From Ophelia neglecta (taxonomy: Eukaryota), in assembly GCA_965285935.1 (NCBI GenBank), contig OZ260663.1, forward strand, positions 56,792,001-56,856,000: a stretch of DNA of 64,000 nt, read 5' to 3'. A program made the position numbers and the translations under genes. The notes under the pieces were generated by a model. The model saw only the letters and a list, made by a program, of their open reading frames with translations, did no database searches and was not told where the DNA came from. Shown here piece after piece: positions 9,686 through 61,976 of the stretch (within the stretch, counting starts at the first letter, position 1; each line of letters starts with the position of its first letter).

Positions 9686-11305
9686 ATGGTAAGTTGGGGC
9701 TATGTCCGCCTGCATGATGAGTCTTCTTTTGAGTCAACTTTCGATATACCTGTTAAGAAGCAAGATTATTGATGAGCTTGTAATATGCGTTTTTAATTTA
9801 AATTCCCGGGTCCGTTTATTATAATTGCAAATTATAAGTGGCGAGAAATAAATCCACAAGAAAATTGAAGATGCTTGTCATTTGTAAATTCATTTATTCA
9901 GATTGAGTTTACACTGAAAGGTAACGAATGTGTCGTGTACCAGTTGGCGAGGGACACAGACGAGAAGTCACCTAAGTTTCAGGAATATTGGCAGATGGTA
10001 AAGAGCACGTGTGAGAGAGGAGACAACCAGGGCTACAATCAGTACATCACTCCGGAGGACTTCCTCAGTAAGCTGCGATGGGATGAGGCTGCCGTCTACT
10101 GTATAGAACGAGGTGGAAAGCTAGTGGCCGGAGTCATGGTCCGGCAGAGTCTCATGGCCCGGAGCGGAGCCAAATGTCTGGCCGCCCTCCACTTCTACCG
10201 TGTCAAGGAGTTTACCGGAAGTGAAGTCTACCGGGAGTTGGTGAGACTTGGCGAGAGTCTCGCCAAGAGTTTGGGGTACTCTTGTAACGAGACCTCGCTT
10301 TTTATTACCAATAAACCTGACGTGCTGGTTTTGAAACAAGAGGGTTACGAGTTCGCCGTGTGTATGGAAGACGTAATCACAGCCCCAAGAGGTCGCCTGA
10401 CCTGCTGTCTGACCATGTACAAAGATTTACAAGTCATCCCGCCTGTTGTGCGTATATTTACATGTAGTTAGTAAAAAAACTTTGGCCATTAACCTTTTTG
10501 CCTCAACAATATTCTAAAATTGTTCGAAAGGGTTTACCAACCTTGTTTATGTTCCTATATAATAAGTGAAAACAAAGGTACGCAAGAAGTTTGAGGTATT
10601 TTATTGAAAAATCATATCGAGTCTGGTAGTTTGTTTATTCAGGTACACGAGGTAACTCAGACCGAGCCCGACCGCCCCGAGGACTTCTTAGACATCAAGC
10701 CGCCACAGGTACCCTTCCTGCCTGTCGACGTCCCCCTGAAGAGCGGCGCCATGGTAACCATCCGGAACATGCGTAATGATGAGAGTATGTTGGTCTACAA
10801 CCTGTACCGTGACTCAGCCGGCCGTGGCGAGGGCTATGCCATCGACGAGTACAAGGGACTGACCGACTTCGTCAATGATTACATTTTGGTTTACTACACG
10901 GTGATGTTTTGTGACAAGGCGACTGGAGAGGTGATGGCAGCCTGTCAATATGGCCAAACGGTCTTTTCCCGCATTGCCCCTGGCGGAGATTGCCCTGTCT
11001 GTGATGCCCACTTGGTGATGACCCCTAAGTACATCGGCAAAGGCGAGGCCACGGAGCTGTGTGACTACATGCTCAGCGTCTGCAAGGAGTCAGGCTTCAC
11101 CTCGCAGACCAATGATACACTACTCACTCAGCTGAAAATGATTACGATTCTACGTAATTTGGGGTTTGCTCTGATTGGAGCCATCCCAAAAACCACCTAT
11201 GTTAAGGGCTTGGGCTGGATAGATTGCGTGTATCTGTATAAAGATATGAGAAACTATCCTACATTAAGTGAAGTAGTTAAGAAAATGCCAAAAAGCAAGG
11301 TTTAA
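9686..11305 (+). CDS. Tandem (two-domain) GNAT N-acetyltransferase, Mpr1/azetidine-2-carboxylate acetyltransferase-like, about 403 aa
   Basis: Exons 9686-9688 (ATG only, then gtaagt), 9902-10447, 10643-11305. The two halves are internally homologous, ending MYKDL and LYKDM. The C-domain has acetyl-CoA loop-like KYIGKGEA and LRNLGFALIGAIP...WIDCVYLYKD, typical of Mpr1-like GNATs. Family call is by recalled motif similarity. Confidence 0.75.
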
Positions 11306-22100: not shown

Positions 22101-25100
22101 TGAACCAGGAGATGGCCAGGCAGGATGAACAAGTATGTATAATAAACCCAGTGTCCGCATTACTCGTTCCACACAAAGACAGGCAGAGCATCTTGTATGT
22201 TGGCCACTTGTTTTCAAATGTCACTGCGATAATTTGGCTTGGGCTTTACTTATATAATAGGTTATTTTATCATACTCATCTTTACAGATTGCTAAGTTGA
22301 ACAAAGACAAGAAAAGTATGGACGAAACCAACACAAAACTAATTGAAGACCTCCAGGCAGAGGAGGATAAAGCCAACCACCTAAATAAACTGAAGCAGAA
22401 AATGGAACAGGCTATCGATGAGTTAGAAGAGAACCTAGAACGTGAGAAGAAGTTCCGTGCGGATGTGGAAAAGGTAAAGAGGAAAGTGGAGGGCGAACTG
22501 AAACAAACCCAGGAGACCGTCGAGGAATTGGAGAAGATCAAGGGCGATCTGGAAGCAAACATCCGCAGAAAAGATACCGATATTAAGAACCTTGAGGGAA
22601 AGCTGGAAGATGACCATTCTCAGATGGCAGCTCAACAGAAGAAGATAAAAGAGCTGATGTCGCGCATTGAAGAGTCTGGCGAAGAGCTGGAAGCTGAGCG
22701 AACAAACCGCTCAAAGGTTGAAAAACAGCGCGGCATTCTTCAGGCCGAGCTGGACGGCCTGAGTGAGAAACTGGATGAAGCAGGCGGTGCCACACAGGCG
22801 CAGGTAGAACTTAACAAGAAACGAGAAGCGGACTTCACAAAACTGCGTCGCGACCTGGAAGAGGCAGTTCTACAAAATGAGCAAACCATTGGCGTCCTGC
22901 GTAAAAAACAAAACGATATGGTCGCCGAGCTTCAAGACCAGATCGACAACCTCCAGAAAGCCAAACAAAAGTACTTGTTAAATTTTTTTTCTTCATTATA
23001 ATAATTTCATGCACCAAAACGAGTGGAACCATCAGTAAATTATATAACAGTTAATATTTATATAGCCGCAAATTTTGAAATAGTATCACGAAGTTCATAA
23101 ATATGTTCTTTGCAGGACTGAAAAGGAGAAAAACATTTTGAAGTTTGACTGCGACGACATTCAGGCGCAGCTCGAAAGTGTGTCAAAACAGAAGGGCCAA
23201 GCCGAGAAAACAGCGAAGTCACTAAAAGGCCAGCTAGATGATACTAACAGCAAGCTTGATGAAGCCAACGGCCAGATGCAAGAATTAAATTCAGCGAAAT
23301 CACGCCTTCAGAATGAAAACGCTGACCTTGGACGCCAACTTGAGGAGGTAGAGAGCCAGCTTAGCGCTATGGCTAAGACCAAGCAAAGTGTTAGCAAGCA
23401 GCTCGAGGAGACAAAAGGTGCACTTGAAGATGAAACCCGCCAACGCCAAAAGCTTGCTGGCGAATTGCGTAATGTCCAGAGTGACTTCAATACTGCACGT
23501 GACCAGCTGGAGGAAGAATCCGAAGGCCGTGCTGACCTGCAACGTTTGCTGACCAAGGCCAACAACGAAGCGCAGGAGTGGCGTCGCAAATGTGAATCCG
23601 GTGAGGGGAGCGTCCGCTCCGAGGAATTGGATGACTTGACGAGGAAGATGAACGCCAAGCTGGCTGATATGGAAGCCCAGATGGAGGCTGCCATATCTAA
23701 AGCAGCTTCACTCGAGAAGGTAAAACACAGAATGACTGGCGAAATGGAAGACCTGCAGATTGATAGTGAAAGATCCCAATCTGTAGCCCATCAAGCGGAG
23801 AAGCGCCAGCGTGCCTTTGACAAGACAGTTGATGAGTGGAAGCGTAAGGTGGCCGACCTCCAGGCTGAATTGGAACGATCCCTCAAAGAGTCTCGCAGCA
23901 ACGCGGCTGAAGTTTATCGTATGAAGGCCCACATCGACGAAGAGGGTGCTGTGGAAGAAGCTCTGAGGAGAGAAAACAAGAATCTAGCTGGTGCGTCACC
24001 ATGGATTTGTACAATTCGTTACAATATATGAAGCTTCAATCCAAAGTAAATAAATTTCATTTTGAGTTCCGTTTGCATTCACTAAATTAAAACTTATTGT
24101 GCTTTATTATTCTTCCTTAGAGGAGATTCAAGAACTTACTGACCAGCTCGGTGAAGGAGGACGATCTGTCCATGAATTGGAGAAGATCCGTAAGCGTCTT
24201 GAGATGGAGAAGGAGGAACTGCAATCGGCCCTAGAGGATGCAGAGTCTGCTCTGGAGCAGGAAGAGATCAAAGTACAGCGTGCCCAACTGGAAATTCAGT
24301 CTGTCCGAAATGACATCGAGCGTCGACTTGCGGAGAAAGACGAGGAGTTCGAGAGCACACGTAAAAACCACCAACGAACCATCGAGTCAAGCCAAGCTAC
24401 TCTTGAGGCCGAAATCCGCGGCAGGGCCGAGGCGACACGTGCCAAAAAGAAACTCGAGTCCGACATCAATGAACTAGAAGTGGCTCTGGATGTAGCTATC
24501 AGGTCAGATTCGAAAGCATGCATATATTCCTTTTGCCAAGGTTTTACACTGGATTATATATGTTCAAGATTGGATTTATGGTTCTGGGAACGAATTCGTT
24601 GCTGTACATTTCAACCAAATATCATTTAATGATAATGTCTTTTGATTCCCAGGGCCCGCGCTGAGGCTGAGAAAAACACCAAGAAATACTCTCAGCAGTG
24701 CCAAGAGCTAGAACAGGCTCTAGACGAGGAGCAACGACGTGTGGCCGATGCCAAGGAGCTATTATGTACGTTTATAATCACATCATAAGAGGATGATTTT
24801 TAACTGCAAGTGGCTGACTTTCACCCGGTGTTATATTCGTTCTGCATAGGCCCTAGTTGTATATGAAACTCTTTAATTGAAATTTTTGGCTGAAGACTGT
24901 CCATATTGGAAGATACTCAATGATTTCCCCTATAATATTCCTATTTTGTCATGTTGGTGTTTTGTTTAAGCTGGCTCCGAACGTCGTAACAACCTGTTGG
25001 CTGGCGAGGTAGAAGAAACCCACACTCAGCTTGAGTCTAGTGAGCTTGCCCGTAAGGCAGCCGAGACTGAGCTTCACGAGGCCAGTGACCGAGTGTCCGA

Positions 25101-26249
25101 GCTCACCACACAAGTGGCAAGTCTCTCCGCCGCTAAGAGGAAGTTGGATAATGAAGTGCAGGCCATGCAGGTAAAATGCAAGATAATATCAAAAGTAAAA
25201 AGCAACTGAGTGATCACACCGACAGAAAATAAATCCAAAACATCATTTGATATAAGTAAAATTATGTGTCACATGACTTATATCAGGTTGAATGGGAAGA
25301 TCAAAGTGCTGAGCTGAAAACAGCTGAGGAGGCGGCGAAAAAGGCCATTGCTGATGCAACTCGTGTAGCCGAGGAGCTCCGTCAAGAACAGGACCACTCC
25401 AGTAGCATCGAGAAGATGAGGCGGTCCATGGAATGCCAGGTGAAGGAGCTCCAGGCTCGACTGGACGAGGCCGAGGCAAGCGTCTTAAAGGGCGGCCAGA
25501 GAATGATTCAAAAACTTGAACAGCGAGTCCGAGAACTGGAGGTCGAATTGGACAACGAGCAGCGGCGTCACGACGAAACCACAAAGAGCATGCGCAAACA
25601 AGACAGGCGCCTGAAAGAGTTTGCCTTCCAAGGAGATGAGGATAGAAAACAGCAAGAACGTTTACGGGAAATAGCCGATAAACTGCAACAGAAGATCAAA
25701 ACTTACAAGAGGCAGGTGGAAGAAGCGGTGAGTAGGCATTCAAATTATAAGAGCATCATCAATATCATATCTAGTCCACATGGACTATAGGCGAATATAG
25801 ACTATTAACTAACTATGGGTTCTACGCTCTGATGAAGTTTATTTCACGGTACGCACAGACAAGTTATTCACTTAATCCAAGAGTACAAGGTAAACTATTG
25901 TTTTTGTTGTAGGAGGAGTTAGCTGCCGTGAACTTGGCCAAGTACCGTAAGGTTCAGCACGAGGTGGAGGACGCCGAGGAGCGTGCTGACATCGCCGAGA
26001 ACACTCTGGCCAAACTCAGGGCCAAGAATCGCAGCTCGTCAGTTGTAAATAGCAGTCCAGTAAGTAAATATGTTTTAAAACATTACCTTTTGGGTTGCTT
26101 GTTCATTCGCTTTAATTACGTTTCATTGAGAAACTTGTGGTAAAGGATGGATGACGACAATATTAAAGTCCATTATTTTATATATTTTATAAATATATTC
26201 TATTCCGCAGAGTGCAATCAGAGTGACTATGAAAACGTCTGTGGATTGA
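15960..26249 (+). CDS. Striated-muscle-type myosin II heavy chain, paralogue B, complete (about 1941 aa)
   Basis: 22 exons: 15960-16032, 16691-16809, 17429-17757, 17935-18133, 18277-18340, 18492-18593, 18754-18857, 19275-19410, 19641-20080, 20183-20760, 20910-21170, 21262-21514, 21628-21742, 21960-22132, 22288-22970, 23116-23990, 24121-24502, 24653-24765, 24971-25170, 25287-25727, 25913-26059, 26211-26249 (sum 5826 nt). N-terminus [11 protein letters not shown]-loop GESGAGKT, switch I NNNSSRFG, switch II DIAGFE, rod, ends [12 protein letters not shown]. Confidence 0.96.
16108..16194. repeat. (GATT)n microsatellite in an MHC-B intron
   Basis: Interrupted run of GATT units seen directly. Confidence 0.95.
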
Positions 26250-37768: not shown

Positions 37769-39430
37769 TTAGTGCATTGGCCTCAGCATAACAACAGGGT
37801 CGAGGTCTTTCGGCAACTCCGATTTCTGCCATATTTTTGGCTTCTTTGCTACCGAACAGTCTTGGCTGGAAGAAATGGTTTCTTCTGCACTGATTTCTAT
37901 CTCGGGACCACTTCGGACAGAAATATTGGACTCCGATGTAGTTGCGTTTTCACTTTTGCTTTCCTCCTTGTTCTTTTTTGTACTGCATGAATCATAATCC
38001 GCTTTTCGCTTACCGCATTTAGTACACGATTCATCGTGTGTGTCATTTTTCGCAAGCCAGTGCAGCAGACGTTCGGTAAAATCAGTGCGCAATTCCATAG
38101 GAAGAAGACCGTCAGCGGAGAGGACATGAGGTAGGTAGACGACGGGAGGAGGGCGTCGATGATTTCTCCGGCAGCCATCAGGATGACAGCGTTTTTGGAT
38201 TCTTTTCTGTTTGCTGTTTTGTGCATGAATTGGTGCAAGTTTCTTCTCCAAGGTCTTAGCAGCACTAGAGGAGGGGCCAAGGTTAACCGAACCCGCATTG
38301 CTCGTACTAACAGGCTGCTCTTGGTGTTCCTCTGTGATGCTGTTGGCTTCGAGTAAGAATGACAACGAAGCAAGGCTTTGGCTTCTCATTGGTTCTTTTT
38401 CCAACTTCTCATGCATGCCTGCCTGATGCGCATTCAAGCGGCTGCCAAATGGGGCCTTTTTCGCGTTTGTCACCGCCTCATGCTCTCCCCTTCGCTCTTG
38501 AACCGGTGTTCTTACATCTTTTTCTTGCTTGGAAACCGGATGTTGATAGCAAGGAATCGGTTGAAGACTAAGAAACAATTGAGACTGACCATCGTCTCTC
38601 ACTTGGACATTGTGTACGCCACAGCGGGCCGGTACACAAGCTTTGGTCGGATGAACTGCCGAAACATTCATTTGCTGCGCCTGTAGTGCCAAAGGAGGAC
38701 ACTTCTGTTTGTTTATTGGTGGAAACACTCGTTGCGTTTGCCACAATTGCTTATGCACTGGAGCTCGATTGAGCTCACTCTGTTGGCTCACTCGGTTATT
38801 GAGTACCGAGGCTGGAACTCTACCACCTGCTGTTAGTCCGCTTCTGAGCGGCACAAGTTCCTGGTTTTCATATCTGCCTGGAAGTTGAGTATGTCTGTTT
38901 GAGACCGTTATCGCCGGCGGCCTATGCCTCTGGAAATCCCACTTGTGCTGGAAAAGCAGTTGGGGATGTAATCGGGTGAAATAAAGATGTGTATAGCCTA
39001 TCAAGTTAGTTCCAATGAAATCACCAATTAGGTGTGCTTCCTCGTCTAGCCGGGATATCTGTGAAGGAGGGATTCTTTGAAAGTCGAGTCTCTCCAGACA
39101 TACAAACAGCGTGCGTGCATTTGAGATGCGAAAACATCTAAGTGGACTCAATGCTGTAGGCATTCTTATCACATCAATCACTACTACTTTGCCGGAGGTA
39201 TCCCATTGGATGGCATCGATGCTACTGTCATTCACCATGTGCCATAGACGTTGAACGAGAAACCACGGGTCCGCGATGGTGGCGTCGGGCAGAGTACACC
39301 TCGACAGGGGTCGAGTCGTGGACGATTGAGGCGCCGTTACCCTACTGACTCGGCACCAGTGACGGAGGAAATCCTCGCCTCCGCTGTCATGACTATACGA
39401 CTTTGCGGCTTGGTAAGCCATTTTTTCCAT
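37769..39430 (-). CDS. Intronless 553-aa protein with a divergent HSF-type DNA-binding domain (HSF5/HSFX-like architecture)
   Basis: Long single ORF. Segment FLVQRLWHMVNDSSIDAIQWDTSGKVVVID...YTHLYFTRLHPQLL follows the HSF winged-helix pattern (KLWxMV...IxWxxxG...YxHxxFxR...LL). The rest is low-complexity, with basic NLS-like patches. Confidence 0.7.
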   Translation of the reverse strand: MEKMAYQAAKSYSHDSGGEDFLRHWCRVSRVTAPQSSTTRPLSRCTLPDATIADPWFLVQRLWHMVNDSSIDAIQWDTSGKVVVIDVIRMPTALSPLRCFRISNARTLFVCLERLDFQRIPPSQISRLDEEAHLIGDFIGTNLIGYTHLYFTRLHPQLLFQHKWDFQRHRPPAITVSNRHTQLPGRYENQELVPLRSGLTAGGRVPASVLNNRVSQQSELNRAPVHKQLWQTQRVFPPINKQKCPPLALQAQQMNVSAVHPTKACVPARCGVHNVQVRDDGQSQLFLSLQPIPCYQHPVSKQEKDVRTPVQERRGEHEAVTNAKKAPFGSRLNAHQAGMHEKLEKEPMRSQSLASLSFLLEANSITEEHQEQPVSTSNAGSVNLGPSSSAAKTLEKKLAPIHAQNSKQKRIQKRCHPDGCRRNHRRPPPVVYLPHVLSADGLLPMELRTDFTERLLHWLAKNDTHDESCTKCGKRKADYDSCSTKKNKEESKSENATTSESNISVRSGPEIEISAEETISSSQDCSVAKKPKIWQKSELPKDLDPVVMLRPMH

Positions 39431-40461
39431 AATTGGCCTGGTGATGTTAAAAAAAACGAACCTATTAAACCGTTTGAGAAATAAGCATGCTTCAATATGC
39501 CTATATCATAATTCCAACACTGTTGCTGAAAATCTTATTCTTAAAACAATAGACATGTGTCACTAAGACACTGTTGCCTAGAGACGGATGACGTTATTCC
39601 AATAACCCTAAATAGATAGCTTAAAATGACCTTTGGGAACGAACTGACAAAAGTCTTTCTTTCTCCTCAAATTCCACGGGGTAAATTTAAATATTATAGG
39701 CATAGTGGTTATTATTAAAAAAAAAGTGCGGCTATCTCATTGTGACCATACTATTAGGAAAGCTCTTTTAAAAATGAACCAGCCCTGGATGTTTCGTTTC
39801 TCTCATCTTAACGAGTAGTAAGATAATGTAATAAAAGGATTTCCCATATTATAGCATACCACAATGCAAAGATGAAAGTAGCGCACTACGACCGCAATCA
39901 TGCTTTAAAGTGAGAAAAGAGACTGCTTGTTAGCAGTATATATTATCTCCGGCTAGCCCTACTGCCAGAGTTTTAGGTCGTCAATAGGACTACAGACAAA
40001 AATCTATAGGCCTACTAGAGGCCGGGAAATCTTTCATACAATCAAACCTATCGAATTTTACCGGCGTTCAATTAGTTTTTTCCAGATTCTTTTTAAGCAG
40101 GAATTAAATGTGTCCTACTTTTTGTGTATGCAAAGTGGAACTCATAACATTCAAGGTTAAATATTTAACTGTTGGAAATAGAAAGTCGACGGCATGACTA
40201 CGTATTAATGACCTTGAGGCTTCGACTTTGGTGTCCAAGTAACACAACGGCAAGGAAACGTTTATTCCCACAGCGTGACGTCAGTAAGTAACATTGGAAG
40301 TCACTGTTCGACGTAATAAAGGAGAATTTTGTCTCTATGCATTATGGCACAGAATTTGTTTTTACATGTATTACATTAGGCCTATTTGGGTTTCTTTTAA
40401 TTCAGTTCAACCAGGCATTTTGTCAGACCTTTTAAGTGTGAGTGACAGAGTAATATATATA

Positions 40462-42340
40462 ATGAAGACGGTAATAGCTAGTTCAATTATTTTTATTCCT
40501 TTTTTCGTGGCCTTTGCGGAAACTGAAGGTAAGAAAAATTATAATTTACTAATATTTCTTGTAAGCCCAACTAACGGTACTTGACTATAATTATATAGCC
40601 TATAGTACGTTAGATTGTGCAATAGGGTAAATTGACACCCCTGCACTTGAGGGTAGGTTGGTTTGCGAATTAGGGAAGTTCATCGCATCCAAGCTTTGCT
40701 AGCTAAAAATTGCAGTCTTTAGCCTGAAAATTTAGTGAATTAAGACTTGACAAAATGAGGCTTAAATTATCTATTATAAAAGGCCGAAAATAAACCATTC
40801 AATTTGCCATGATTTTCTCCTGATCCAAACCTATATAAGGGACGCACCATTACTTACTTAGGGGGGGGGGGGGTTAAGTTTGTATTTACCTGTCAATTGG
40901 CCTTGAATAAGAAATAATAAGCTGAGAACTGTTTTACTTTGCAGTATTTCAGAATTATACCGGATTGACATACACGCGTTTCGAAGCAAAGGCTAAAAAT
41001 AAACATAATAATAGCCGTTATCGGCGCAGTGAATACAACTACGACTATGATTATGACTACTATGACGACGACTCCTACCCGGCCGGAGGTGATAAGGTAC
41101 TAAGTCACTGCGCATGTTTTTAAGCGTTGCTTTAAAAATGTACATATTAACCATCAAAAGTTATGTATATCTATCTTTAAACTTCACATGAATATAAATT
41201 TAGTGATCGCTTTTCATCCCTGCCTTTTTTGCTTTCTTTATCATATTATTTTGTTCAAGCGGCGTCCTGTGTTCGGCACTGTGCTGCGAAGTAATAAAAA
41301 AAAAAAACCTAACCCTAATCCTAGTCTCACCCTGCTTCCAGGGCACGCCAGAGTAGTAACTGGGCGCCCGTTGCGCCGAATACAGAGACCCCTTCGTGCA
41401 ATCGTCTTTGAACAATCATTAAATATATATTGCATGCATGTTAGCCTATACAGCCAGTTGGTACGGCCGATTACATAGTTATATGACAATAGTTTTTACT
41501 TAACAGAACGCTGAGGATTCTAGCTGGATTGAAAAAGTTAATAAGAAGTACAAGCGTCACATGATTTTAGGAGTAGTGCTGAGCACCCTTGGTTTGTGTA
41601 TATTGTGTTGCTGTTTTACGATATGCCGTAAAGTGTGTGGAGAGTGTTGTCGTTGTTGTAAAGACAACATCGGTAGCTGGTGTGACTCCATTCGCGGACG
41701 AGACCCCAGTAAGTTCACAATTTCGATATCCTATAATTATGTTAAACAAGTAACCATTTGATATTCGTATTTCTTGCAGTCGTATTCTACTTGCCATAAG
41801 GCCTATGTATAAGATTTTTTGGTCTCTCGGCTTTTAAGTCCCTGGGGACAAAATACACTATTTTTGGATATATACATTTATTGTATATACATATATACAT
41901 ATATGCATATACAGCTAATATTAGAAGTTCTGACTTCAATTAAACCCAGCAATAGTAAGCCATTGGATAATCTGATGTTAATATGCGCATATATTCCCCT
42001 GGCGTCTGGGTTTTTTCTTTAACTTTTCATTTGTATATTGTTCTTTAGTGCGTTTTTTTCCTATGTTCTTTTTACCTCCATTAAATGTAACGTTAAAAGT
42101 TAAAGTGTACATACTAATATTGTCATTGTAAATTGTAGATTACCGAAGTGTGTGTGATGCCTATAGACGATTGGATATCGAGCCTCCCAGTTACAAGGTA
42201 TGGGTGGAGCAGAAAAAGGCGTTCGGATGGAAAGATGATTTCTAGGGGTACTAATCCTCGTTCATGTCTAAACCACGGCCATATTATCCACACTAAATCC
42301 TTAAAATTACCAGAATATGATCTATGCACCTAAATGGTGA
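40462..42340 (+). CDS. Uncharacterised type I single-pass membrane protein, 168 aa
   Basis: Exons 40462-40528, 40945-41096, 41507-41708, 42139-42197, 42314-42340 join in frame through GT-AG sites (507 nt). Signal peptide MKTVIASSIIFIPFFVAFA, RYRR, SEYNYDYDYDYYDDDSY, TM MILGVVLSTLGLCILCCCFTIC, Cys cluster, PPSY. Confidence 0.75.
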
Positions 42341-45922: not shown

Positions 45923-48900
45923 ATGAAGATGCCTTCCTTAGGCCTCCGCCTATGTCTCAATCAGTTTGGTATTGAGACCTTTTTTATGTGTAGTACTGGT
46001 ACACTTCCACCTTTTTCTAAATGAATTTGGTGTGTCTCACAAATCACATCGGTTCTGTTCGTCCTTAAATTGTATTGTAGAACGAAATAAAGTCATCAAG
46101 GCAGGGTCCGACATTTTTTCCAGAGAAAGCTGCTCAATTATGACCTAGTTCATTTTAACATCACGTTCGCGGTGTTACCTCGTTCAGAGAGTTCGATCGG
46201 AGCTTCAATATGTATCTGTTCTAACTTTGATGTCCTTGTGATATATCTCAATACGAATACAGGATCTTTATAAGATTAATCATATCATAATACAACTAAC
46301 ACGTTATCAGTTATAAAGAGTTTTTATCGAAGTCTACAGACTTATTTTAAATTACATTCGAAGGCACTCGAGTCAGTATTTATTTTATTTCTCTTCGCTT
46401 TTTCCTGTACCATCTACTACGCTGATCAGACACCTATATACAGAATAAAACATGGATTCAAGAAAAAAGTGTGCTAAGTGCTTTAAGTGTGTTTCATCAT
46501 CACGTTGAATTCTCCCGGCAGTACATTCCTTTCAGTGTTCATTCCATATGTCATATCGCTGGTGAAGGGCGAGCCAAACCACCGTGGGTTTTATTGCAAT
46601 GATGAGAGCATCCGCTATCCTTACCATGAAGACACCGTCACGGTTGGCATGCTGCTCGGCGCTTGCTTCCTCTTGCCACTCGCCTCAGTAAGTACAATTC
46701 TATGAAACTGTGTATGTGGAGCAAACGGGTTTGTACGCCAAGCAGAACTACACCAGTTGCCTCGATTATTCCTTAGATTTGGCAAGAGTAGTTTGCAAAT
46801 CCATATCACATTTGCTTTATCACGGGGCAAACCCGACCATGGTATAAATCATATTCTCCTCAAACACGTCCTGCCTTGTATAAATGAATAAAAGGCATAT
46901 TGAGCCAATTCCCAACTGTATTCTGTAAAATTATGAGACGGCTTACACATCATAAACTCTCCTGTAGCAAATTTCATCTCTGTCGTACGATGACCACTAG
47001 CCTAATAGGTTTTGTGTTCCAATCTGCATCATGCAAACCTTTTGAATACTTCTCATTACAAGGGATATCAATTTTATGCCCTCTTTTTTATTATTGCATA
47101 ACAAGTTTGTTTGCTGCTTTTGGAAGTTGATGGATTGACGTGTGTTTGGCCTATGGCTGCTGGTTCATTGTGATTTCGGTTTATTCTTGATTGATGGTTT
47201 TCTCTGTCTTCGGGGTATTCACCCCCGTTTCTTAGAAGCCACCAGGTTTGACATCTATATAACGAGAACATACAGCGAAATACCTTTCCAATATTCCTAA
47301 ACAGCTTAATTGTAAAACTAAACTCAAATATAAGTTTATGTTTATTCTCCTGAACTAAATCAGAGCTACATATAGTAAACATATATACAATTCAGCGGGC
47401 ACAATATTCAGCAACTTATCAATTTAAAGATATATTCAGTATACGTTATGACATTCAAAGATAAATACATTCAACAGACATAGTGGCATTCATAGCGTTA
47501 CAATTCAATAGATCTGCTATATACGAATCAATCAATCTGGTATATACGAATATGAAAACATTACCTTGGCATATCTTCCGAAGGTAGTTACGACTAGTTC
47601 GACTAGGTCAACATAACTATTTACCATCTGACAACTTTCATCATTCCCAAGGAAGACTGGGACTAGCCGTGGAGAGTCTGACAGATTATACAGCATGACA
47701 AAGTCTGCCGGCCCTAGTAAATTTACTATGTCTTCCCACAGTATATTCCTCAAATCAGTGAGGACTAGGCACCCTCCGTCACAAAACATGTGTTCAAACG
47801 GGTTAATTACATACTCGTCACACAATACACACGAGACTTCTAAATTTTCATTAAACAGTGAGAAGAGATATACCAGATTCATGACATTATTAAGTAAAGA
47901 TGGACTGACCTTCGCAATCTCATACAAAACAGAAGGAGTTTCAATAAAATGCGGATGTATTTTTTGAAACATAGCGCAACCAGGCTTTGAAATAGCAACA
48001 GAATTTCGCTGGACTGACTCTTTGGATGCAATCGCCTCCTTTACAATTTGCTTCCACGTTTGTTTTGTAGGGAAACTTAGGGAGAAAAAAAATTGCAACC
48101 AAGTTTCCTGCAGATCATATTTTTGGAGAATCTCATAACATCGTGCACGAAACCTTTACAACTATCTTTGGTATCGGTGCAGTCATAATTCTGGAGTCGA
48201 ATTTCAAACAATGGCGCAGCTAGGTGAGTCTGTGGAAGTGTGGCGAGTTTTAGCATGAACATGAGCTTTTTCTGGTCTATGATCGATTCGATAGAGGTCC
48301 AGCCAATGGCTGACAAAGCAATCTCTGTGTGCGTCCGTGGTAAGAAACCTTGTATGGATTTCGCAGCTTTCCGATGGACAACTTCCAGTTGGCTGTTCTC
48401 TGATATCGACCGGTCATTCCAGATTTCAGCGCCGTGTGTCATCGAAGGGAGACATATTTGTGTCCACACCTTCGACGACGTTAATGGGTTAAGCCGGTTA
48501 TTGACGACACCAATGCCAGACAGCCCCCCAAATAACTGCCTACCCTTTTTACACATTGAATCTGTCCGAGAACTAGAGACAAAATTTGCCTTCAGTTCTA
48601 TTCCAACATGGGTAAGTCTAAAAACTTCTTCAATGGGTTTGCCATTAAGACACCATTGGCGATTTTCTTTGTTTTTTCTATGTTGAGCAGTGCTTTCTCC
48701 AAATACAACGACTTGACTTTTTGATGGCGAGAAAATTAACCTCCATTTACGGCTATATTCTCCGGCCATATTCAGCATCCTTTGAAGGCCGTCATGTGTA
48801 GCAGAGAGGAGTGCAGTGTCATCTGCCAGTGTAGGAGTTCCAACGTCCACCCCTCTGACTTGGAGTCCGTCTCCCGTTTGTGTCATCGTTTCATGTAAAT

Positions 48901-51900
48901 CGTAGTAGGCTATAGCCATAAACAATGTTGATAATACTCCACCCTGTTTAATGCTACGTGTGACTGGGAAGTAGTCAGAATATTCTCCGCTTACCCAAAC
49001 ACACGAACTTGAGCCATCGAGCCATTCCCTGATCAATCTCCACAGCCAGCCGCGAATCCCAAGCTTAAACAGCTTGAGTAGTAGACCGTCCCACCATACT
49101 TGATCAAAAGCTTTTTCTATATCAAGAAATGCAGCAAATACTTTGCCTCCGCGTTCATTGAAAAACCGAATGCTCTCCTGTACACTGAAAGTCAGGAGTA
49201 CATTATTTGACTGTTTTTTGCAATGTTGCAGTGGACCGAGGAAACAGTTCTCTTTCATCCAGGGCTCTAAACGCGTCCTAACAATTTTTTCCAAGAGTTT
49301 GTTCAAGACTGACTTCAGAGATATACCCCTGTATGAGTTTTTGTCCGTCTTGTCCTTCTTTTTACCCTTGTAGAGGGGGACAATCACACCTTGCTTCAAG
49401 GAACGAGGTATATGGCATGTGAGAATGATATCATTATAGAGCATGGCCAGTAGTTTATATAAGCTGCGACTTCCGTATTTCAGGTGCTCATAAACTAGTC
49501 CATCTCGTCCCGATGCCTTGCCGTTGGGGAGAGATTTTGCTATCTTTTCCACTTCTTCTGCAGAGATAGATTCCAACGGAATGTCACAATCATGCTCTGG
49601 CGAATCAGCTGATTCTGTACAAATCTGCAGTTCACTTTTCACAGTATTTGCAAAATCATTATCAAAACAGTCTGACTCATTAACTTGCTCATTCAAAAGC
49701 GTCTCAAAATGCGAGGCCCACATATTTCGGAGGTCAACCGGAGTCGAATAAGTCACTCCCTCTGATTTTATTAGATGGAGCCCTTCATCTGTGACTCGTT
49801 TACTGCGGACATAGCGCCAGAATGCTTCTAGGGAGGTGTTCATTGTGATTTCGGTTTATTCTTGATTGATGGTTTTCTCTGTCTTCCGGGTATTCACCCC
49901 CGTTTCTTAGAAGCCACCAGGTTTGACATCTATATAACGAGAACATACAGCGAAATACCTTTCCAATATTCCTAAACAGCTTAATTGTAAAACTCAACTC
50001 AAATATAGAATTAGCTGTACCACATTACTAAGTAATAAACATTTGACTTCTAGATGTTTATATAGCAGCGTTTACGGCATGTCAGTTTCCATTTAACAAG
50101 CTAAATCTGTATTAAAAACACTTATGCTTGACTTACTAGCTGTCAGGAACGCCTGCTTGTACCGTTGTTGAAACGTATAATATCACGTGATATGTAAAAT
50201 AAGGCGTGTTATACGCAATATTAAGCAGTACCCGTAAAGGATTCAGGACTTAGATTCCAATCTAACCTTTCGAAATAGAATCCAATTCGCGTAGCAATTG
50301 TAGAAACAAGAGACGGCCTGTTGTGCACATGGCTTTATAGAAAGGACGGAAACACTATGGCACGGGCACCTAACTTCACTGGCAAAAAGATTATCTATAT
50401 ACATGTTAAAGTCAAGCAACTTGTCTGAATGGTTCGATCAGTAGGGCAAATCTTAGCGTTAGTGACCGGCGATAGTACCTATTTTGGCCGAAAATTGATA
50501 TGTACAATGGTCGTGTGTGGTAACGAATACGCAGAAATCAGTTTGTCCACTGTAACGTTACTTATTTTGATGATTTTTGGTCATGACGTTTAAAACTGGG
50601 ACAGAACGTTTTGTGCACTTTTGTTCAAAGAGTGCGGCTTGTAAGCTGCATAATCGTGTTATACTAATCATCTCGGCTACTATCAAACCGATCATACTTC
50701 TGCGATCACTGCTGATTCCATATTATCGGTTTTGCTCTTACAGTTTATCGCCGTGGAGCTTCCATACCATCGAGTTGACGGCGAAAGAAGACGTTGGCTC
50801 CTGAAGGCTTTCAAAAATGTGGCCAAGTTGATGGGACTTTACCTGTATGGATTTGTGGTCGCAATAGGTCTGACTGAGGCGGGAAAGCTCACCATTGGTC
50901 GTCTGCGACCTCATTTCATAGATGTGTGTCAACCAGACTTCTCTAAAATCAATTGCTCCCAGGGGTGAGTTTGAGTGCTTTGTGTCGTTGGTAAGATTTG
51001 TTCAAAGTAAAGAATGGTAGGGGAAGCAAAGAATCCGGTAATGCAAGAATCCAATAATGCGATAGGCCTATATTATTATTAATTGGTACAATGGAATACA
51101 AAGGTTCTTTTTCAGTACAGGGTGGCAAAGATTCAATTGTACTTTAGTGTACATGTATAGATTACTTTATAGGTACATGCATAATTTATTTTATAGGTAC
51201 ATAGAGGATACCATGTGTATGAATACAGAGAGTACAATCCTGCGTGAGGCCAGAAAATCTTTTCCATCTGGTCATGCTACATTTGGGTTTTACATTGCAA
51301 CGTTTCTGGCTGTAAGCCCAACCTTTTGCCTTAACTGCTTAACTATTGCTTAAATTAACAATATTGGTAAGAAACAGAGAGAAACAAATGGTAATGATAG
51401 GCTCAACATTTAAGCAAAAGTAAATGCCCAAAGCCCAGCCTTTATTTTGGTAACAATTGGTGACCTTCAACTTGTATGGGAAAAACAGAGTTCACCGGGG
51501 AAAGGCCAACATTCCCACCTCAAGAATGTCCCTAAAGTGGGTTAAGTTCCCCGTTAATCGATTAACCGTAAACCGTAGGTCAACATGACATCATGTCCTA
51601 ATTCATGCATGTTCATAATTATATTTTCGACATTGATTTCAGTATTACTACCAGCAGCGTATCCGGCTGAAGTTTTCGGTGTTACTCAAACCGACTCTTC
51701 AAGCTATTCTCATCCTGGCAGCTATTTTTTGTACCCTCTCACGGGTTATGGACAACAAACACCACCCCGGGGACGTGGCTGTTGGAGCTCTCATAGGAAT
51801 GCTGGTTGCATTCTGGATGGTGAGTGTACGGGTGAAAACTAAATTGATATTTTTTTTTTTTTTCATATCATATAGCTATGGTATTGTTCACATCGGTTGA

Positions 51901-53938: not shown

Positions 53939-55604
53939 ATGCTGCAGTCCAAATATTTAGTTTGCATATTTGCGTTTACACTTTGGGGTACAGGTATGCC
54001 AACAATTATATATATATTCCCTTTGAAATGTAAACGTTTGGTAACAAATATCAGTAACCATTAATAGTTGTATGTATTGTAAAGATACAGCCGCCCTAAA
54101 ATTATCAATTTTCGCCAGTGTTCAATTCTAGTACTGAATAGAGACATACAGTTCGGTATAATTTCGCGCTGCACCAATTTGCGCACCTGTCTTGAGGTAT
54201 TAATTCATAGTGATTCGGGATTTGACATTTCTCCGTTCTTCGGGATCAAGGATTTTCATACACTATGACCTGGAAGTGTTCAGTTTAATTTTCATGTGAA
54301 TCGGGAAACACTTTTCTAATTTATAGTGAAATAGGAAATGGCTTAAATGGGAAATAGATTATCCCTTATGACTAGAAACATTCAGAAGTCAAATGTCCGT
54401 GATTCGGTTACCCCTTTTCCTAACGGTGAAACGGGAAAACCATCCACCCCAAACCCGCCCCAACCCTCTTGAATGGTTTAAAAAAATTCGGAGTGAGTTC
54501 GCGATGTAAAAGCGTTTCATTTAAAATGATCATAAAAAAGATTTAAACAAGTGTTGCAAGGATTCTTTAAACCGAACACATTCAAAAACGTATTGAGAAT
54601 CACCATTTGCAAATCAATCCGCCATCCCTACCCCTAACCCGGGAATAAATACGGCTAGTGTTATTTTATGCTATGGAGGTTATAACCATTTCAACTCGTA
54701 TAACAACTATGCATTCTATCTACCCGCAGCTAGATGCCTACGTTTTCCGGTAGTAGGAGACTGGGGGGCCAATCCTTCCTCTAGTACCCGCACTCGATAC
54801 CAGAGGGAGGTAGCAGCTGTCATGAACAGCTGGTGTGCCAATGGTGGCTGCGACTTTGTTGTATCAACCGGCGACAACTTCTATCCGGCGGGGGTGACTT
54901 CAGTAAACGACAGGCGATTTGACGTGAGCTGGAATGACATTTACACCGGGTCAGCCATAAGAGGGCTCACGTGGTACATGAGCGTGGGCAATCACGATCA
55001 CCACTATGACAACGATGGCAGGGAATGGCTCCAGGTTCAATACTCCCTCCAAAGGAACGAAAGATGGTGGCAACCAGACCTGTATTATTCCTTCCAACTT
55101 CAAGCATCAGGCAAACTTGTTCATTTTATTGTCCTCGACAGCCAGTCCCTTCGTAAACGCACGAATGACCACAATGCACAGATAGCATGGCTTGAAACTC
55201 AGCTGCGCTCCTCAAGCGCAGATTGGAAAATCATCATCGTGCACCATCCGGCATACACATCCGGCAACTACGGTCCCGGAAGCAGCACCATACGCAATAG
55301 AGTGATGCCATTGGCAGATCGGTACGGCGTGGACGTGTTATTCACAGGACACGACCACAATCTGCAGCACATTTCCAAAACGGATGGCTCGGGCGTAGAT
55401 CACGTGGTGTCCGGTGGTGGCAGTGCGGGTTTGTACTCTCAGCGGTCTGCTCACGTGACTGATCTCCGGAACCGAGGGTACACCGTAAGGCATTTCACCC
55501 TACAATATGGTTTTGTAGGAGTCGAGATTAACTCCAGTCGTATCAAGATGCAGTTCTACGACAGATACAACAATAACGTGTACACCTATAGAAGATATGC
55601 CTAA
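53939..55604 (+). CDS. Purple acid phosphatase, ACP5/TRAP-like, secreted or lysosomal (about 309 aa)
   Basis: Signal-peptide exon 53939-53993 plus exon 54730-55604. Metal-binding motifs GDWG, GDNFY, GNHD, VHHP, GHDH. Confidence 0.92.
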
Positions 55605-57503: not shown

Positions 57504-60500
57504 TCACCAGTCGAGTTTCATATCTGCCTTGCTCCATTCATATTTACCGCCTCTCTTATAGAACATTTTCTGGTCAAACCCACTACGATCCATGGCGGCT
57601 TCTACACCAACGTCCAAGATGGAGGGAGAGGGAACCTTGGCTCCGCCACTACAGTCCAGAAAACGCATCTGAAAGAATGCAATACCACCTGGTCAGTCGA
57701 ATGATAGCTGACTATGATTAACTGTTGAAGTCAGTACTACTATGTGTATAACCATGCACGTCGATTTCATTTACTGCAGAATGTGAATTCATAAAACATG
57801 TTGTTATGACATGCAGGGTATGCTTACACATTCGTCCAAAATCAGGTAAGAGTTCTGCATCTGAAATATTAAGATTACTAATTAAAGTTAATAAAGTATT
57901 TTTGTGTATTCTTCGGAAGACCATGGTGGGAATCCTATCGGGAGCCTCTCCATGAGAAAAATATTAATGATTAATAAGTAGCAGGATTTATCTAGTCTAT
58001 TTCAGCCACTGGCAATATAAACTTTGTTACGCTAGAAACTTGCAAAGTCTTTTGCATTAAGAAATAAAAGTTCTAATTTGAGATCCATTTCTTTCTAATT
58101 CTTCTATTAAGTAGGCTTATTTGATATGTACCTTCTCGTTTGATTCTGGTACCAAACAGCTGAAATGATTGTGTCTGTCAATAAATTGCCGGAAGTGATC
58201 CTCGCTGATGACGTATCTCTCCGCATTCCGCTTGGCGTCGTCTCCACAGTTCTCGCCTTCCAGCAGCAAACACTGAAACACCTGTGTGGGGAATACACCA
58301 TCGATTATTCAATGTGCCATAATCCTCTAAAACTCTTCCAGAGTTTTGGGTAAATCCGATAATCAATAGGTTATGCAATACTCAATTGGAGGAATCCATT
58401 ATTTGCAAAATGGGGGATCGAGGGTAGGGGGGCTAGATGATTTGCTGTTAAGAAAAAAAAAGTTTTACATATTCCTACAAAATAAGTTTGTTTGTCATAT
58501 TTAGGCATCCTCTCCTATGCTTTTTTTGCCAAAAACCAAATCTTAGGCTGCGCTGGGAGAAAACTGGCCGCCAACATTTAAATGGCAAATATTCGACATG
58601 GGTGAGTTTACAAGCCTGGCTGTTGCAATTGCAGTCTGCTGGGTGTGACCTTACATCATTTGAATATTCAGATGACACTAATCTTTAAGAATTGCATAAA
58701 ACTCACACCCCTTTATTATCCCATAAAACGGATACTTTTAGACTTTCAGTATATAAAAATGACCATTCTGGAAAATGCTGTGCGGTTTTAATTTCTGGCC
58801 GTGTGCATCACAGACGCTTAAGTCAGTTTATTCTATTCTTTTTTACCCTTATGCTCTGTATAGTCGATTGACTTAGTAGAAGGTATAAAAGAAAAATAAA
58901 TGGTGTACACGGTGGCCAAGTTTGGTTTTGATCTAAAACTTATGTGTGCAAATTAGTATTCGCCTTTCGGTTGTTAAATGATATCATCTGATACTGTTAG
59001 CCGCCACTATGAAGTTACTTGTAATGCTTTCCTTTTACCTTCCATCGGATAGGGTTAAGCAGCTGCACACCGTCAGACATGTCCTCGTCATGATTGTATG
59101 TATTGACAACCGTGTTCAGCTTAAACGCAACCTGTTCAAAAACATTCAAAATACAAAACAGGATTCATTATTTTAGATTTAATGAAGGTAAACGTTGTTT
59201 GGCATATATATTAACAGTGTCAATATTAATTCCTTCTTCTTTATGGTTATCCTATCTAGTAGAGGAATCTCATGTAAATGGTGCTTCCTTATTGTGTATA
59301 AACATATCCAACTTCTTCCACGATTGGTGCTCTCAGTCTTTTTTCGGGCAATTTGTATGTATTAATGCTTTTAGGTTAGCGAAAATATGTGCAGTTAGTC
59401 TAGACTGAACTTAACTCATAGTCTATAGTTAAACATGTCCGAAAATATTTCTTTAAATCTATAAATGTGTCAGAATTCTTTATGTTGAAAATCCATTGCA
59501 GCTGCAAATTTACTTGCAGAGTACCCTACCTTCGTAATCATCATCTATCTCAAAACCTTTCAAATTGTGAAAGAAGTAGGGCCTATTGGTTGGAAGAGCA
59601 GACAACCAACCTCATTGAAACAAAAGGTCGAGTTTTTAACATTTTAAAAGCTCATCCTCGAACCAGAGTACGTTAAAAGTGGCCACATCACGCCTCGCTC
59701 GTACCATCTTAGATATAGTAACGTGAGTATAAACAACTAGGCCTATTATTGAAGAACTACTTTATCAAAAAACCAAAATATTTCCTACACAAAAACAACA
59801 TTGTTGTGACGTCAGCAATAACACTAACAATCTGAAATTGACCTGGTAGGAACTATCCATTTATTAGTCCAGATTACATTTATGTTCTTAGTGTTATAGA
59901 ACTCCGCTCTCATGTTTATTGTATGTCATTGGTTATTAAATGGATTGTTGCCAAAGATTTGAAGGATGCGGAAATGTGGATACCTTGTAATCAAAACACC
60001 AGTTTCGCACTCGAATCAGACTGTCAAGGTGGTTTTTCTGCCCCTGTTGTCTACCAATGAGCGCGTTGGTTTCCGGGGAAAAACTGTCACAAGATAGTGC
60101 CAAAATATCTAGGAACTCGCCTGTAAATAAAATGTTTGGAATAAGATCTTATTATGAAAAAAAGGTAACCGTTACATTTGCTAAGGCGAGGAAGTGGGTA
60201 AGGAAGGGTCCAATTACCTTAATGTGACGGAACTCGGTTATAAAAATCTAACGTCCCTTTTCCCTATAGCTTCGGAAACCAAAATAAAGTCATGACATCT
60301 GCCTTCTCCCACCCCACCCACAGCCCCACCCCCATCACCACCCCCATTATATGATAGCTGTATTTTTTGATTCCATTTCTTCAATTCTTAAATGTACCGT
60401 ATTTTGTGAACCATTTTTCCCTGATGACACTGCCATTGCTGACTATGCTGACGCTGGAAATACCAAGTTCTTGTTTGCAGAATTTCACTAAATCACCGAC

Positions 60501-61781
60501 ATACTCTCCTCGTTTTTCCAGAAAGGGTTCTCCACCAGAAAAATTAATCTTCTCCATGCCTGCCATTGGGAAAATAAACAAATATATTTAAAGAAAAAAA
60601 CACTGTGTTAAAGGTTCGAAATTGATCACATGGTCGTTTTATCATAATTAATTTTGTAGTCATAATATGGAATTGGGGATTGGCAACGAACTAAGGTACT
60701 TTTATGCATAAAATTGTTAAATGTATCATATTGCATTAAATAATCAATTATGGTCACTATGGCAATCGTTTTTCAGGCTTCACACAAATATTCAAGTTTA
60801 ATCAGTATAACCCGAAAGAGATTATTAACACAAAAATTTCATAGATCAGTTATTTATCCCACAGCAAATGTTTCGACAGGACAATCTGCATATTTCCTGA
60901 AAATGAGGCAAACAAGTTTAAATCTAGGGGTTTATTGACCTTTGACCCCGGGAGATTGAGCCAAATGACCTCTGGTGGCAACTTTTCACCACCACAAACT
61001 GAAATTAACATTATTTTTACCAAATATTAGGGATAATATAAGGGGCCCACTTTCAAACTTAAACTGACTCGCTTTACACGTGAAAATGGAAAATTAAGGT
61101 TGAAAATAGGGAATAAATGGGATAAAGGGCAAATGGGGCAAATAATGCCTTTTCGCATGCACGCCACCACGTTTGGCTGCTCGGAAAGTAACAATTCATA
61201 ATTGGTACATTGAGTAGCCCATTGCTATGACATTATTCAAATATCAAGTTGATCCCTCCAGCTTACAGTCACGTGTGATTTTAAAGAGTTATATTTTAAG
61301 TCTCACCTGCTTTTGCGAGCATGCGCAGTCCTTCCTTGGCCTTCTCTAAAGGAAGGACAAAAGAGGTCTTGGCAGTGTGGAAGCAGAAGCCACAACTATA
61401 GTTACACTGTCTTGTAAAGTGGTAGTTGACGCTCACAGGAACAGTGGACGGTTTAGCTACACGGCCATTGAATTTGCCTACAATTTCCGACATTTTCAAG
61501 TCAGTTATTGTATCCGTTTTCCTGTGATTTATATCCGCGAGCTTTTTGTTCTTTGATACCTTGATCAGTTGATGCCTTTTTACGATAGAGACGACTCTAA
61601 GTAGTCCAACAGTTAAAGTTACCCAAAGAAACACGCCGATTAACAAAACTGCCCCAATAAAACGGCAGCCATTCATTTGGTAGTGCATGGCAAACGTATT
61701 ATATGTCAAATCGCCAAAATTAGTCAGCCACTGTGGCATCCTACGACTTACATTTGCCACTTCTTGATTTATTTCGTCCAT
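57504..61781 (-). CDS. RSAD2: Viperin (radical SAM antiviral protein), about 404 aa
   Basis: Exons 61781-61307, 60559-60398, 60120-59984, 59131-59039, 58281-58132, 57860-57828, 57668-57504. Motifs [24 protein letters not shown] (CxxxCxxC), [33 protein letters not shown], terminal KLDW. Confidence 0.97.
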
Positions 61782-61847
61782 TGTCACCGTGTTGATCAAC
61801 CGTTCACCGATAAATGTACCACTCTTTAATCTGTCGGTGTCACGGTA

Positions 61848-61976
61848 TTTATACTTATTTTACTTGTTTAGTGGTAGCCTAGTTATAACCGAGAGCGCCT
61901 CTACGAGAGCGCAAGTGCAACGCATACGTTGAACTTTCCCCATGCATGGCAATGCGTTTCACAAGTATCGATTTCC
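61848..61976 (-). promoter_or_regulatory. Viperin proximal promoter: TATA box, kB-like and ISRE-like motifs
   Basis: TATAAA on the minus strand at 61853-61848. GGGGAAAGTTC (minus) at 61941-61931. AGTATCGATTTCC at 61964-61976 is one mismatch from the ISRE consensus AGTTTCNNTTTCY. Confidence 0.45.

What the first reader, a model, noticed from the sequence alone, without database searches (positions are those of the whole stretch)
40462..42340. Orphan receptor-like protein: a furin-unmasked Tyr/Asp peptide on a Cys-rich, PPxY-bearing membrane anchor
Seen: five small exons, only partly visible in the ORF track, encode a signal peptide, a basic propeptide with N-glycan sequons (NYT, NNS), RYRR, SEYNYDYDYDYYDDDSY, a short stalk with KKYKR, a TM helix, a cluster of about ten Cys, YRSV and YRRL motifs, and PPSY. 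Known: RxRR is a furin site; Tyr among acidic residues is the tyrosine-sulfation context, and PSGL-1 exposes sulfotyrosines right after a furin site; juxtamembrane Cys clusters are often palmitoylated; PPxY binds Nedd4-family WW domains, as in PRRG and Shisa-like proteins. Inference: an undescribed adhesion ligand, mini-receptor or tethered peptide precursor whose polyanionic tip is masked by the basic propeptide and could be shed at KYKR. Best candidate here for a new system.
Basis: partly seen in the sequence, partly recalled or inferred. Interest (0 to 1): 0.7.

Follow-up and report, generated by a model that had tools for sequence, protein, structure and literature searches.

The report
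Orphan worm membrane protein, tyrosine-acid tip
A single-copy gene, probably from an annelid worm, is predicted to encode a small membrane protein with no relative found, whose outer tyrosine/aspartate patch is likely sulfated and may be uncovered by furin, while its likely fat-anchored inner tail would recruit Nedd4-type ligases to pull the protein and its catch into the cell.

Summary
Exons 1-4 and every motif named are in the sequence. The gene is very probably real: splice sites are strong, and simulated DNA gave no such layout in 100 Mb under strict criteria, and 2 weaker look-alikes in 85 Mb under loose ones. The fifth exon is unresolved; coding statistics favour read-through of exon 4. 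The host is probably an annelid with no close sequenced relative. The gene is single-copy and no homologue was found, so motif conservation could not be tested. It fails defining tests for Shisa-like, PRRG and PSGL-1. Best reading: a palmitoylated PPxY membrane adaptor of the Comm/PRRG/WBP1L kind whose ectodomain is a short, likely sulfated Tyr/Asp patch acting as a heparin-like catch. New here: the cysteines lie on one face of a predicted amphipathic helix. Shedding at KYKR and a PSGL-1-like adhesion role are unlikely. Moderate-low interest: a real orphan, mechanism inferred only.

The parts
40462..40528 (+). Exon 1: ATG, predicted signal peptide (aa 1-19, A-x-A cleavage by rule of thumb), phase-1 donor
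   Evidence: donor 10.1 bits, top 0.1% of 28772 GT sites
40945..41096 (+). Exon 2: putative propeptide with two sequons, furin-type site, Tyr/Asp patch; phase 1 to 0
   Evidence: acceptor 5.3, donor 7.3; coding signal, 2.6-3.7% of null segments as high
41016..41027 (+). RYRR furin-type site (aa 47-50), Ser at P1'; sequon N44 three residues before it
   Evidence: shuffle p=0.043
41028..41078 (+). Tyr/Asp patch (aa 51-67): 7 Tyr, 7 acidic; 13 consecutive N-A-Y codons with mixed C/T third positions
   Evidence: only such run in 256 kb; only exact pattern match in the genome
41507..41708 (+). Exon 3: short stalk with KKYKR, TM helix, Cys-rich juxtamembrane helix; phase 0 to 1
   Evidence: (acceptor 10.4, donor 8.1)
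41561..41626 (+). Predicted transmembrane helix (aa 92-113) with 5 Cys in its C-terminal half
   Evidence: (19-residue hydropathy 2.4)
41630..41695 (+). Predicted amphipathic helix (aa 115-136) with Cys, Trp and Ile on one face: candidate S-acylated membrane-surface helix
   Evidence: (low-confidence model)
42139..42197 (+). Exon 4 core: YRSV (42141), YRRL (42162), PPSY (42183-42194)
   Evidence: (acceptor 5.7)
42198..42245 (+). Preferred C-terminus: read-through of exon 4, 15 residues to TAG (175 aa protein)
42314..42340 (+).
   Evidence: (sites 7.9 and 7.6) for; (no coding signal) against
40276..40283 (.). CRE-type palindrome TGACGTCA between this gene and the divergent HSF-like gene; possible shared promoter (label recalled, untested)
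   Evidence: sequence; HSF-like ATG at 39430

Best explanation
This is a single-copy four- or five-exon gene for a predicted type I membrane protein of about 170 residues that likely works as a small capture-and-internalise adaptor: a likely sulfated Tyr/Asp patch outside would bind a basic partner, and a likely palmitoylated PPSY tail inside would send the complex inward. Shown in the sequence: the exons, motifs, single copy and Cys periodicity. Inferred steps: (1) the signal peptide sets N-out topology; (2) Golgi TPST sulfates some of the 7 Tyr, giving a heparin-like patch of charge -7 to -14; (3) furin cuts after RYRR and removes a 31-residue propeptide whose basic end (7 K/R) could mask the patch; (4) S-acylation pins the Cys face of the juxtamembrane helix to the inner leaflet; (5) YxxPhi and PPSY bring AP-2 and a Nedd4-family ligase, routing the protein and its partner to endosomes or lysosomes, as Comm, PRRG4 and WBP1L do for their clients. 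The partner is unknown.
For: Splice sites lie within the range of 23 myosin introns, with donors in the top 0.1-1.7% of 28772 GT sites. Layout null: 0 in 100 Mb strict; loose criteria gave 36 SP+TM, 2 with a PY motif and 0 with 6 or more Cys in 85 Mb, and in the real 256 kb only this gene passes SP+TM. 0 of 20 allelic differences fall in the CDS, which is 22% of the stretch (p=0.007 as sites). The patch has mixed synonymous codons (9 C, 4 T), unlike the 5 other genome matches, which lie in (GAT/TAT)n-type microsatellites. Amphipathic moment with Cys counted as hydrophobic: p=0.0004-0.004 over all windows. PPxY shuffle p=0.005. Two TPST genes and an ITCH/WWP-type WW domain are encoded. Precedent from passages read: sulfotyrosine clusters in acidic N-termini mimic sulfated glycans (PMC9372746; PMC7310474); WBP1L is glycosylated, palmitoylated and binds NEDD4-family ligases through PY motifs (PMC6991692); PRRG/Comm layout (PMC5578492).
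Against: No homologue was found, so no motif is shown to be conserved. Coding signal is weak in exons 1, 3 and 4 (13-51% of null segments as high). The 20 differences form 7 clusters from one sample (p=0.17). Amphipathicity is not significant on the Eisenberg scale (p=0.10-0.20). Furin site, YxxPhi pair and sequons are near chance (p=0.04, 0.06, 0.20). A sequon three residues before RYRR could hinder cleavage (inference). More basic residues lie before the helix (5 in 10) than after it (3 in 10), unusual for N-out topology. Competing acceptors score higher than those used: 40952 (7.8, out of frame) and 41779 (7.5, 71-nt intron, tail without PPSY). My crude gene finder ranked highest models that cut the TM/Cys stretch out as a 72-nt intron with weak sites. 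In PSGL-1 the value of propeptide cleavage is itself unclear. TPST and WW ligases are general in animals and do not single out this protein.
Confidence: 0.38

Rival explanations
1. Ordinary fast-evolving PPxY adaptor: only the TM helix, Cys helix and PPSY tail matter (Comm-like sorting of a client through membrane contact); the Tyr/Asp run is a slippage-born spacer and RYRR is incidental.
For: The patch has the form of a microsatellite, and pure versions occur elsewhere in the genome. The furin site is near chance (p=0.043) while PPxY is not (p=0.005). Comm1 regulation of Robo1 needs Robo's TM domain (PMC5578492 passage).
Against: Exon 2 has the best coding signal of the internal exons; the patch begins exactly after RYRR; its codons are synonymously mixed; the basic end of the propeptide (7 K/R) matches the patch (7 acidic) in number.
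Confidence: 0.3
2. Membrane-tethered precursor of a released Tyr/Asp peptide (a sulfated signal, or a matrix, mineral-binding or DOPA-type adhesive peptide) cut at RYRR and at KYKR.
For: Two basic sites flank a 40-residue piece; solitary and clustered sulfotyrosines occur in peptide hormones and matrix proteins (PMC9372746 passages).
Against: KYKR lacks Arg at P4 and ends one residue before the helix, probably out of reach of a convertase (inference); single peptide copy, no Gly-Lys-Arg amidation signal (sequence).
Confidence: 0.1
3. PSGL-1-like cell adhesion ligand for a lectin-type receptor.
For: Same order of signal peptide, RxRR and Tyr/acidic N-terminus as PSGL-1 (PMC2174952 passages).
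Against: No mucin stalk (24 residues against 250-280), no T[D/E]PP[D/E] O-glycan motif; the patch would sit within a few nm of the membrane; the tail carries internalisation motifs.
Confidence: 0.07
4. Membrane-remodelling or fusion-assisting microprotein, built like reovirus FAST proteins (tiny ectodomain, acylation, amphipathic helix, PPxY), perhaps in germ cells, given its head-to-head HSF-like neighbour.
For: After furin cleavage the ectodomain is about 41 residues; acylatable Cys and an amphipathic helix follow the TM; FAST p14 has a PPXY (PMC7412057 passages).
Against: FAST ectodomains are amphiphilic fusion peptides and the polybasic cluster is cytoplasmic; here the tip is acidic and the basic cluster precedes the helix. 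No viral relative. The germ-line link is recall only.
Confidence: 0.05
5. The gene model is wrong in substance: another splice pattern (secreted form without the TM, or a tail without PPSY), an inverted topology with a luminal disulfide-bonded Cys domain, or a decaying gene.
For: Stronger competing acceptors; the top-ranked crude models skip 41592-41663; charge bias around the helix.
Against: The skipped piece has weak sites (3.4, 2.8) and is shorter than any of 23 myosin introns (91 nt or more); the coding model was trained on Cys-poor proteins; no stop or frameshift in the model; null rates.
Confidence: 0.1

Closest known systems
PRRG1-4 (transmembrane Gla proteins) and Drosophila Commissureless (PMC5578492: passages and section 7 read)
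   Same: Signal peptide, propeptide removed to expose a modified anionic N-terminus, one TM with a Cys near its inner end, short PY-motif tail; Phe at -16 from the cleavage site.
   Different: No Gla domain: 1 Glu in the patch, no ectodomain Cys, Asn at -10 and -6 instead of Ala and Leu; one PY motif, not two; 12-Cys cluster; no sequence match.
Shisa-like/STMC6 adaptors: Shisa, WBP1L, CYYR1, VOPP1, TMEM92 (PMC10531659, PMC6991692: passages read; Pei and Grishin 2012 not held)
   Same: Short type I protein, N-glycan sequons, Cys at the inner end of the TM (palmitoylated in WBP1L), PPxY tail for NEDD4-family ligases.
   Different: No six-Cys ectodomain; tail not Pro-rich; the intron before the TM is phase 0 and 18 codons upstream, against phase 2 at the TM in this genome's own Shisa-like genes.
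PSGL-1 (PMC2174952: passages read)
   Same: Signal peptide, RX[R/K]R propeptide site, Tyr in an acidic context at the mature N-terminus.
   Different: No mucin stalk or O-glycan Thr motif; 7 Tyr against 1-3; different tail.
Sulfotyrosine-rich acidic N-termini of fibromodulin, osteoadherin and GPIHBP1 (PMC9372746, PMC7310474: passages read)
   Same: Tract of many Tyr among Asp/Glu, proposed heparin mimic binding basic clusters; such tracts arose convergently.
   Different: Those sit on folded secreted or GPI-anchored proteins; here the tract is nearly the whole ectodomain of a TM protein with an internalisation tail.

Membership tests
Shisa-like (STMC6) | Extracellular six-Cys domain C*C*CC*CC or Shisa_N | tested here: not met
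   No Cys before the TM; no Pfam hit; not among 19 Shisa_N, 2 CYYR1 or 3 WBP-1 matches in the genome
Shisa-like (STMC6) | Signal peptide, single TM, Cys at the inner end of the TM | tested here: met
   (hydropathy and motif scan; no SignalP or DeepTMHMM available)
Shisa-like (STMC6) | PY motif in a Pro-rich tail | tested here: inconclusive
   One PPSY present; tail not Pro-rich
Shisa-like (STMC6) | Shared intron pattern (not a published criterion): phase 2 directly before the TM | tested here: not met
   Phase 2 in 9 of 9 own-genome loci examined (9 of the 16 over cut-off); phase 0 here
PRRG / Commissureless | Gla domain rich in Glu with conserved Cys | tested here: not met
   1 Glu in the patch, no Cys; no Gla hit; genome search for PF00594 empty and uninformative
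PRRG / Commissureless | Carboxylase propeptide: Phe -16, Ala -10, Leu -6 | tested here: not met
   1 of 3 (F35; N41 and N45 fail), read
PRRG / Commissureless | PPxY plus extended LPSY(D/E)xA motif | tested here: not met
   Only PPSY (definition)
PSGL-1 | Propeptide site followed by Tyr in an acidic context | tested here: met
PSGL-1 | Mucin domain of 250-280 aa and T[D/E]PP[D/E] motif | tested here: not met
   24-residue stalk without Thr (definition)
PSGL-1 | Actual sulfation and selectin binding | not testable with these tools
   needs expression and mass spectrometry
FAST fusogens | Cytoplasmic polybasic cluster, amphiphilic ectodomain, viral origin | tested here: not met
   Basic cluster on the N-side, acidic tip, intron-bearing gene
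Palmitoylated PPxY adaptors (functional class) | S-acylation and WW-ligase binding | not testable with these tools
   Motifs present; biochemical test needed

The most novel reading that the evidence does not exclude
A protein-only stand-in for a heparan-sulfate proteoglycan: a minimal receptor whose whole ectodomain is a poly-sulfotyrosine heparin mimic, kept masked by its own basic propeptide until furin cuts, which then captures basic growth factors, proteases or defence peptides and clears them by Nedd4-dependent internalisation.
Probability: 0.12. Interest if true: 0.65.

Novelty: new variant of a known kind. Interest (0 to 1): 0.33.

Why it matters
If true, it would show a third way to build a PPxY membrane adaptor (a sulfotyrosine patch in place of the six-Cys or Gla module), probably born from a microsatellite, and give a very small model for zymogen-like masking of a sulfotyrosine patch, a point left open for PSGL-1. 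As it stands it is one orphan gene in a poorly sampled lineage; small TM-Cys-PY proteins are common (16 Shisa_N loci over cut-off in this genome alone), so the base rate for an ordinary adaptor is high.

Tried and rejected
RNA evidence: no RNA holder listed; the three runs bridge the introns without joints and so behave as DNA of one sample. WW domain with exon-4 peptide complex prediction: no verdict, score 0.01, no evidence either way. Homologue searches were made exon by exon only, never with the whole spliced protein, which lowers sensitivity: exon 3 gave 0 of 5 candidates, 0 at E 0.001 among 1.84 billion representatives, none in metagenome or viral contigs, only E 0.27 or weaker in PDB; exon 2 gave 0 of 4 candidates. 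Own genome: besides the gene itself, 5 matches at E 0.2-3 for exon 3 were noise, none for exons 2 and 4. The ESM Atlas gave no answer, so a feature-based search is still open. The single-sequence model of exon 3 (pLDDT 66, pTM 0.35) was too poor for a fold search. The bacterial promoter scan was irrelevant. A Thr-rich mucin-like reading of exon 2 in another frame needs an acceptor at 41029 scoring -0.4: rejected. A 64-codon alternative frame of exon 4 holds LPEY, showing that PY-like words arise by chance; it needs the weaker donor 41633: rejected. A YxNM motif appears only across the exon 4/5 junction, so no weight was put on it. Gla search uninformative. Pei and Grishin 2012 was not held; family definitions come from papers citing it. 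No supplements were read. Literature searches listed no paper whose title or abstract start describes such a protein.

Full report
Observation. The sequence holds an ATG at 40462 and exons 40462-40528, 40945-41096, 41507-41708 and 42139 onward, which join in frame over GT-AG introns of 416, 410 and 430 nt with phases 1, 0, 1. The C-terminus is open: splicing at 42198 to 42314 gives 168 aa, read-through to 42245 gives 175 aa.

Is it a gene? I trained splice matrices on 23 of 25 introns of the two myosin genes in the window (two ambiguous ones dropped). The donors score 10.1, 7.3, 8.1 and 7.9 bits (top 0.1-1.7% of 28772 GT sites in 256 kb) and the acceptors 5.3, 10.4, 5.7 and 7.6, within the myosin range. 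A search for chains with a signal-peptide exon, at least four exons, 140 or more residues and a later TM found only this gene in the real 256 kb. In Markov-simulated DNA it found none in 100 Mb at strict cut-offs; at loose cut-offs 85 Mb gave 588 chains, 36 with a TM, 2 with a PY motif and none with six Cys. The criteria were chosen after seeing the gene. A codon-phase model supports exon 2 (2.6-3.7% of null segments as high) and the read-through (1.6-6.8%), is neutral on exons 1, 3 and 4 (13-51%), and does not support exon 5 (83-90%). With exon 3 intact, read-through scored 24.0 against 17.5 for the five-exon model at the highest intron penalty. Against the model: two competing acceptors score higher than those used (40952, out of frame; 41779, a 71-nt intron and a tail without PPSY), and the crude gene finder preferred cutting out 41592-41663, which has weak sites (3.4, 2.8) and is probably an artefact of Cys-poor training. 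In contigs of three runs from one sample, 0 of 20 differences fall in the CDS: p=0.007 as sites, 0.17 as 7 clusters.

Host and relatives. The genome is 762 Mb. Its COI reads under table 5 and its best named matches are polychaete annelids at 80-81% identity, so it is probably an annelid without close sequenced kin. The gene is single-copy by exon and pattern searches. No homologue was found for exon 3 or exon 2, and no Pfam family matches any exon at a meaningful level. These were single-exon queries of 34-67 residues, so absence is weak. Neighbours are a Ras-family gene, a divergent single-exon HSF-like gene 1.03 kb upstream, and a PAP2 gene; none explains the gene.

Anatomy. The propeptide (aa 20-50) is net +4, with all 7 K/R in its last 17 residues, against 7 acidic residues in the patch. 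The patch is 13 consecutive N-A-Y codons with 9 C and 4 T at third positions; it is the only such run in 256 kb, and the 5 other one-mismatch matches in the genome lie in (GAT/TAT)n-type microsatellites, against 10 for the reversed control. I infer a slippage-born repeat held in a reading frame long enough to diverge at silent sites. After the TM, Cys, Trp and Ile fall on one face of a helix at aa 115-136: p=0.0004-0.004 when Cys counts as hydrophobic, as it would when acylated, and p=0.10-0.20 on the Eisenberg scale; the low-confidence model also has a helix there. Shuffle probabilities are 0.005 for PPxY, 0.043 for the furin site, 0.058 for two YxxPhi and 0.20 for two sequons. KYKR lacks the P4 Arg and abuts the helix, so shedding there is doubtful. 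The basic residues before the TM (5 in 10, against 3 after) are atypical for a type I protein and leave topology to be tested. The genome encodes two TPSTs and an ITCH/WWP-type WW domain; this makes the mechanism possible, not specific.

Mechanism. I commit, at 0.38, to a capture-and-internalise adaptor: sulfation of the patch, furin removal of a masking propeptide, S-acylation of the helix, and AP-2/Nedd4-family sorting through YxxPhi and PPSY. Every one of these steps is inferred. The main rival (0.30) keeps the inner half and treats the outer half as a spacer. A released peptide (0.10), a wrong model or topology (0.10), a PSGL-1-like ligand (0.07) and a FAST-like membrane remodeller (0.05) follow.

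Comparison. It works like PRRG/Comm and WBP1L-type adaptors but is a member of neither. Shisa-like proteins are defined by a six-Cys ectodomain (PMC10531659, PMC6991692, PMC5578492; passages), absent here. The genome's own Shisa-like genes (16 of 19 matches over cut-off) have a phase-2 intron after the Cys-domain exon in 9 of 9 examined, directly before the TM in the 8 where I found the TM exon, against phase 0 here. PRRG needs a Gla domain and Phe/Ala/Leu at -16/-10/-6 (section read); only the Phe matches. PSGL-1 needs a 250-280-residue mucin stalk and an O-glycosylated Thr (passages). The patch best resembles the heparin-mimicking tracts of fibromodulin and osteoadherin (passages). FAST proteins share size, acylation and an amphipathic helix but not the charge layout (passages). 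Convertase P4 preference, the positive-inside rule, AP-2 use of YxxPhi and the CRE label are recalled, not from calls.

Novelty and verdict. Searches listed no paper describing this combination, and the scan holds no note on look-alike DNA. It is a new variant of a known kind: a real, lineage-restricted gene with an unusual tip, whose function rests on motifs alone. Interest 0.33.

Noticed in passing
window 1-8000 and 17400-26150; G000:C5 about 56.72-56.82 Mb: Tandem cluster of at least four myosin heavy-chain genes, one on the opposite strand (name recalled from sequence); the two in the window differ in three intron positions.
   Followed up: partly
window 37769-39430 (-): Single-exon 553-codon gene with a divergent HSF DNA-binding domain (Pfam E 9e-6), head-to-head with the target at 1.03 kb.
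   Followed up: partly
G000:C9:19.39-19.49 Mb (L040, L043-L048): Tandem array of seven Shisa_N loci, several with Pro/Gly/Tyr-rich tails; 16 Shisa_N loci over cut-off in the genome.
   Followed up: partly
L014:7167-9080 and L015:826-2532: Cellular RNA-dependent RNA polymerase (RdRP, PF05183) gene in two long exons about 40 kb before the window.
   Followed up: no
window 47532-49855 (-): LINE-like reverse transcriptase ORFs (RVT_1) inside an intron of the PAP2 gene, with a repeated flank at about 47270 and 49900.
   Followed up: no
G000 genome-wide; L055, L056: 89 Sulfotransfer_3 matches, a large expansion, including two TPST genes on C12.
   Followed up: partly
window 60300-61860 (-), 54597-55604 (+), 9869-11305 (+), 28500-32000 (+): Radical-SAM gene resembling viperin (name recalled), single-exon metallophosphoesterase, two GNAT-like ORFs and a GST-like gene.
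   Followed up: no
L009: Mitochondrial order nad3-nad2-cox1-nad4L-nad4 (gene names recalled from motifs); cox1 followed by nad4L looks unusual for an annelid (recalled).
   Followed up: no
L020:247-1011: 255-codon ORF just beyond the window with no Pfam match.
   Followed up: no
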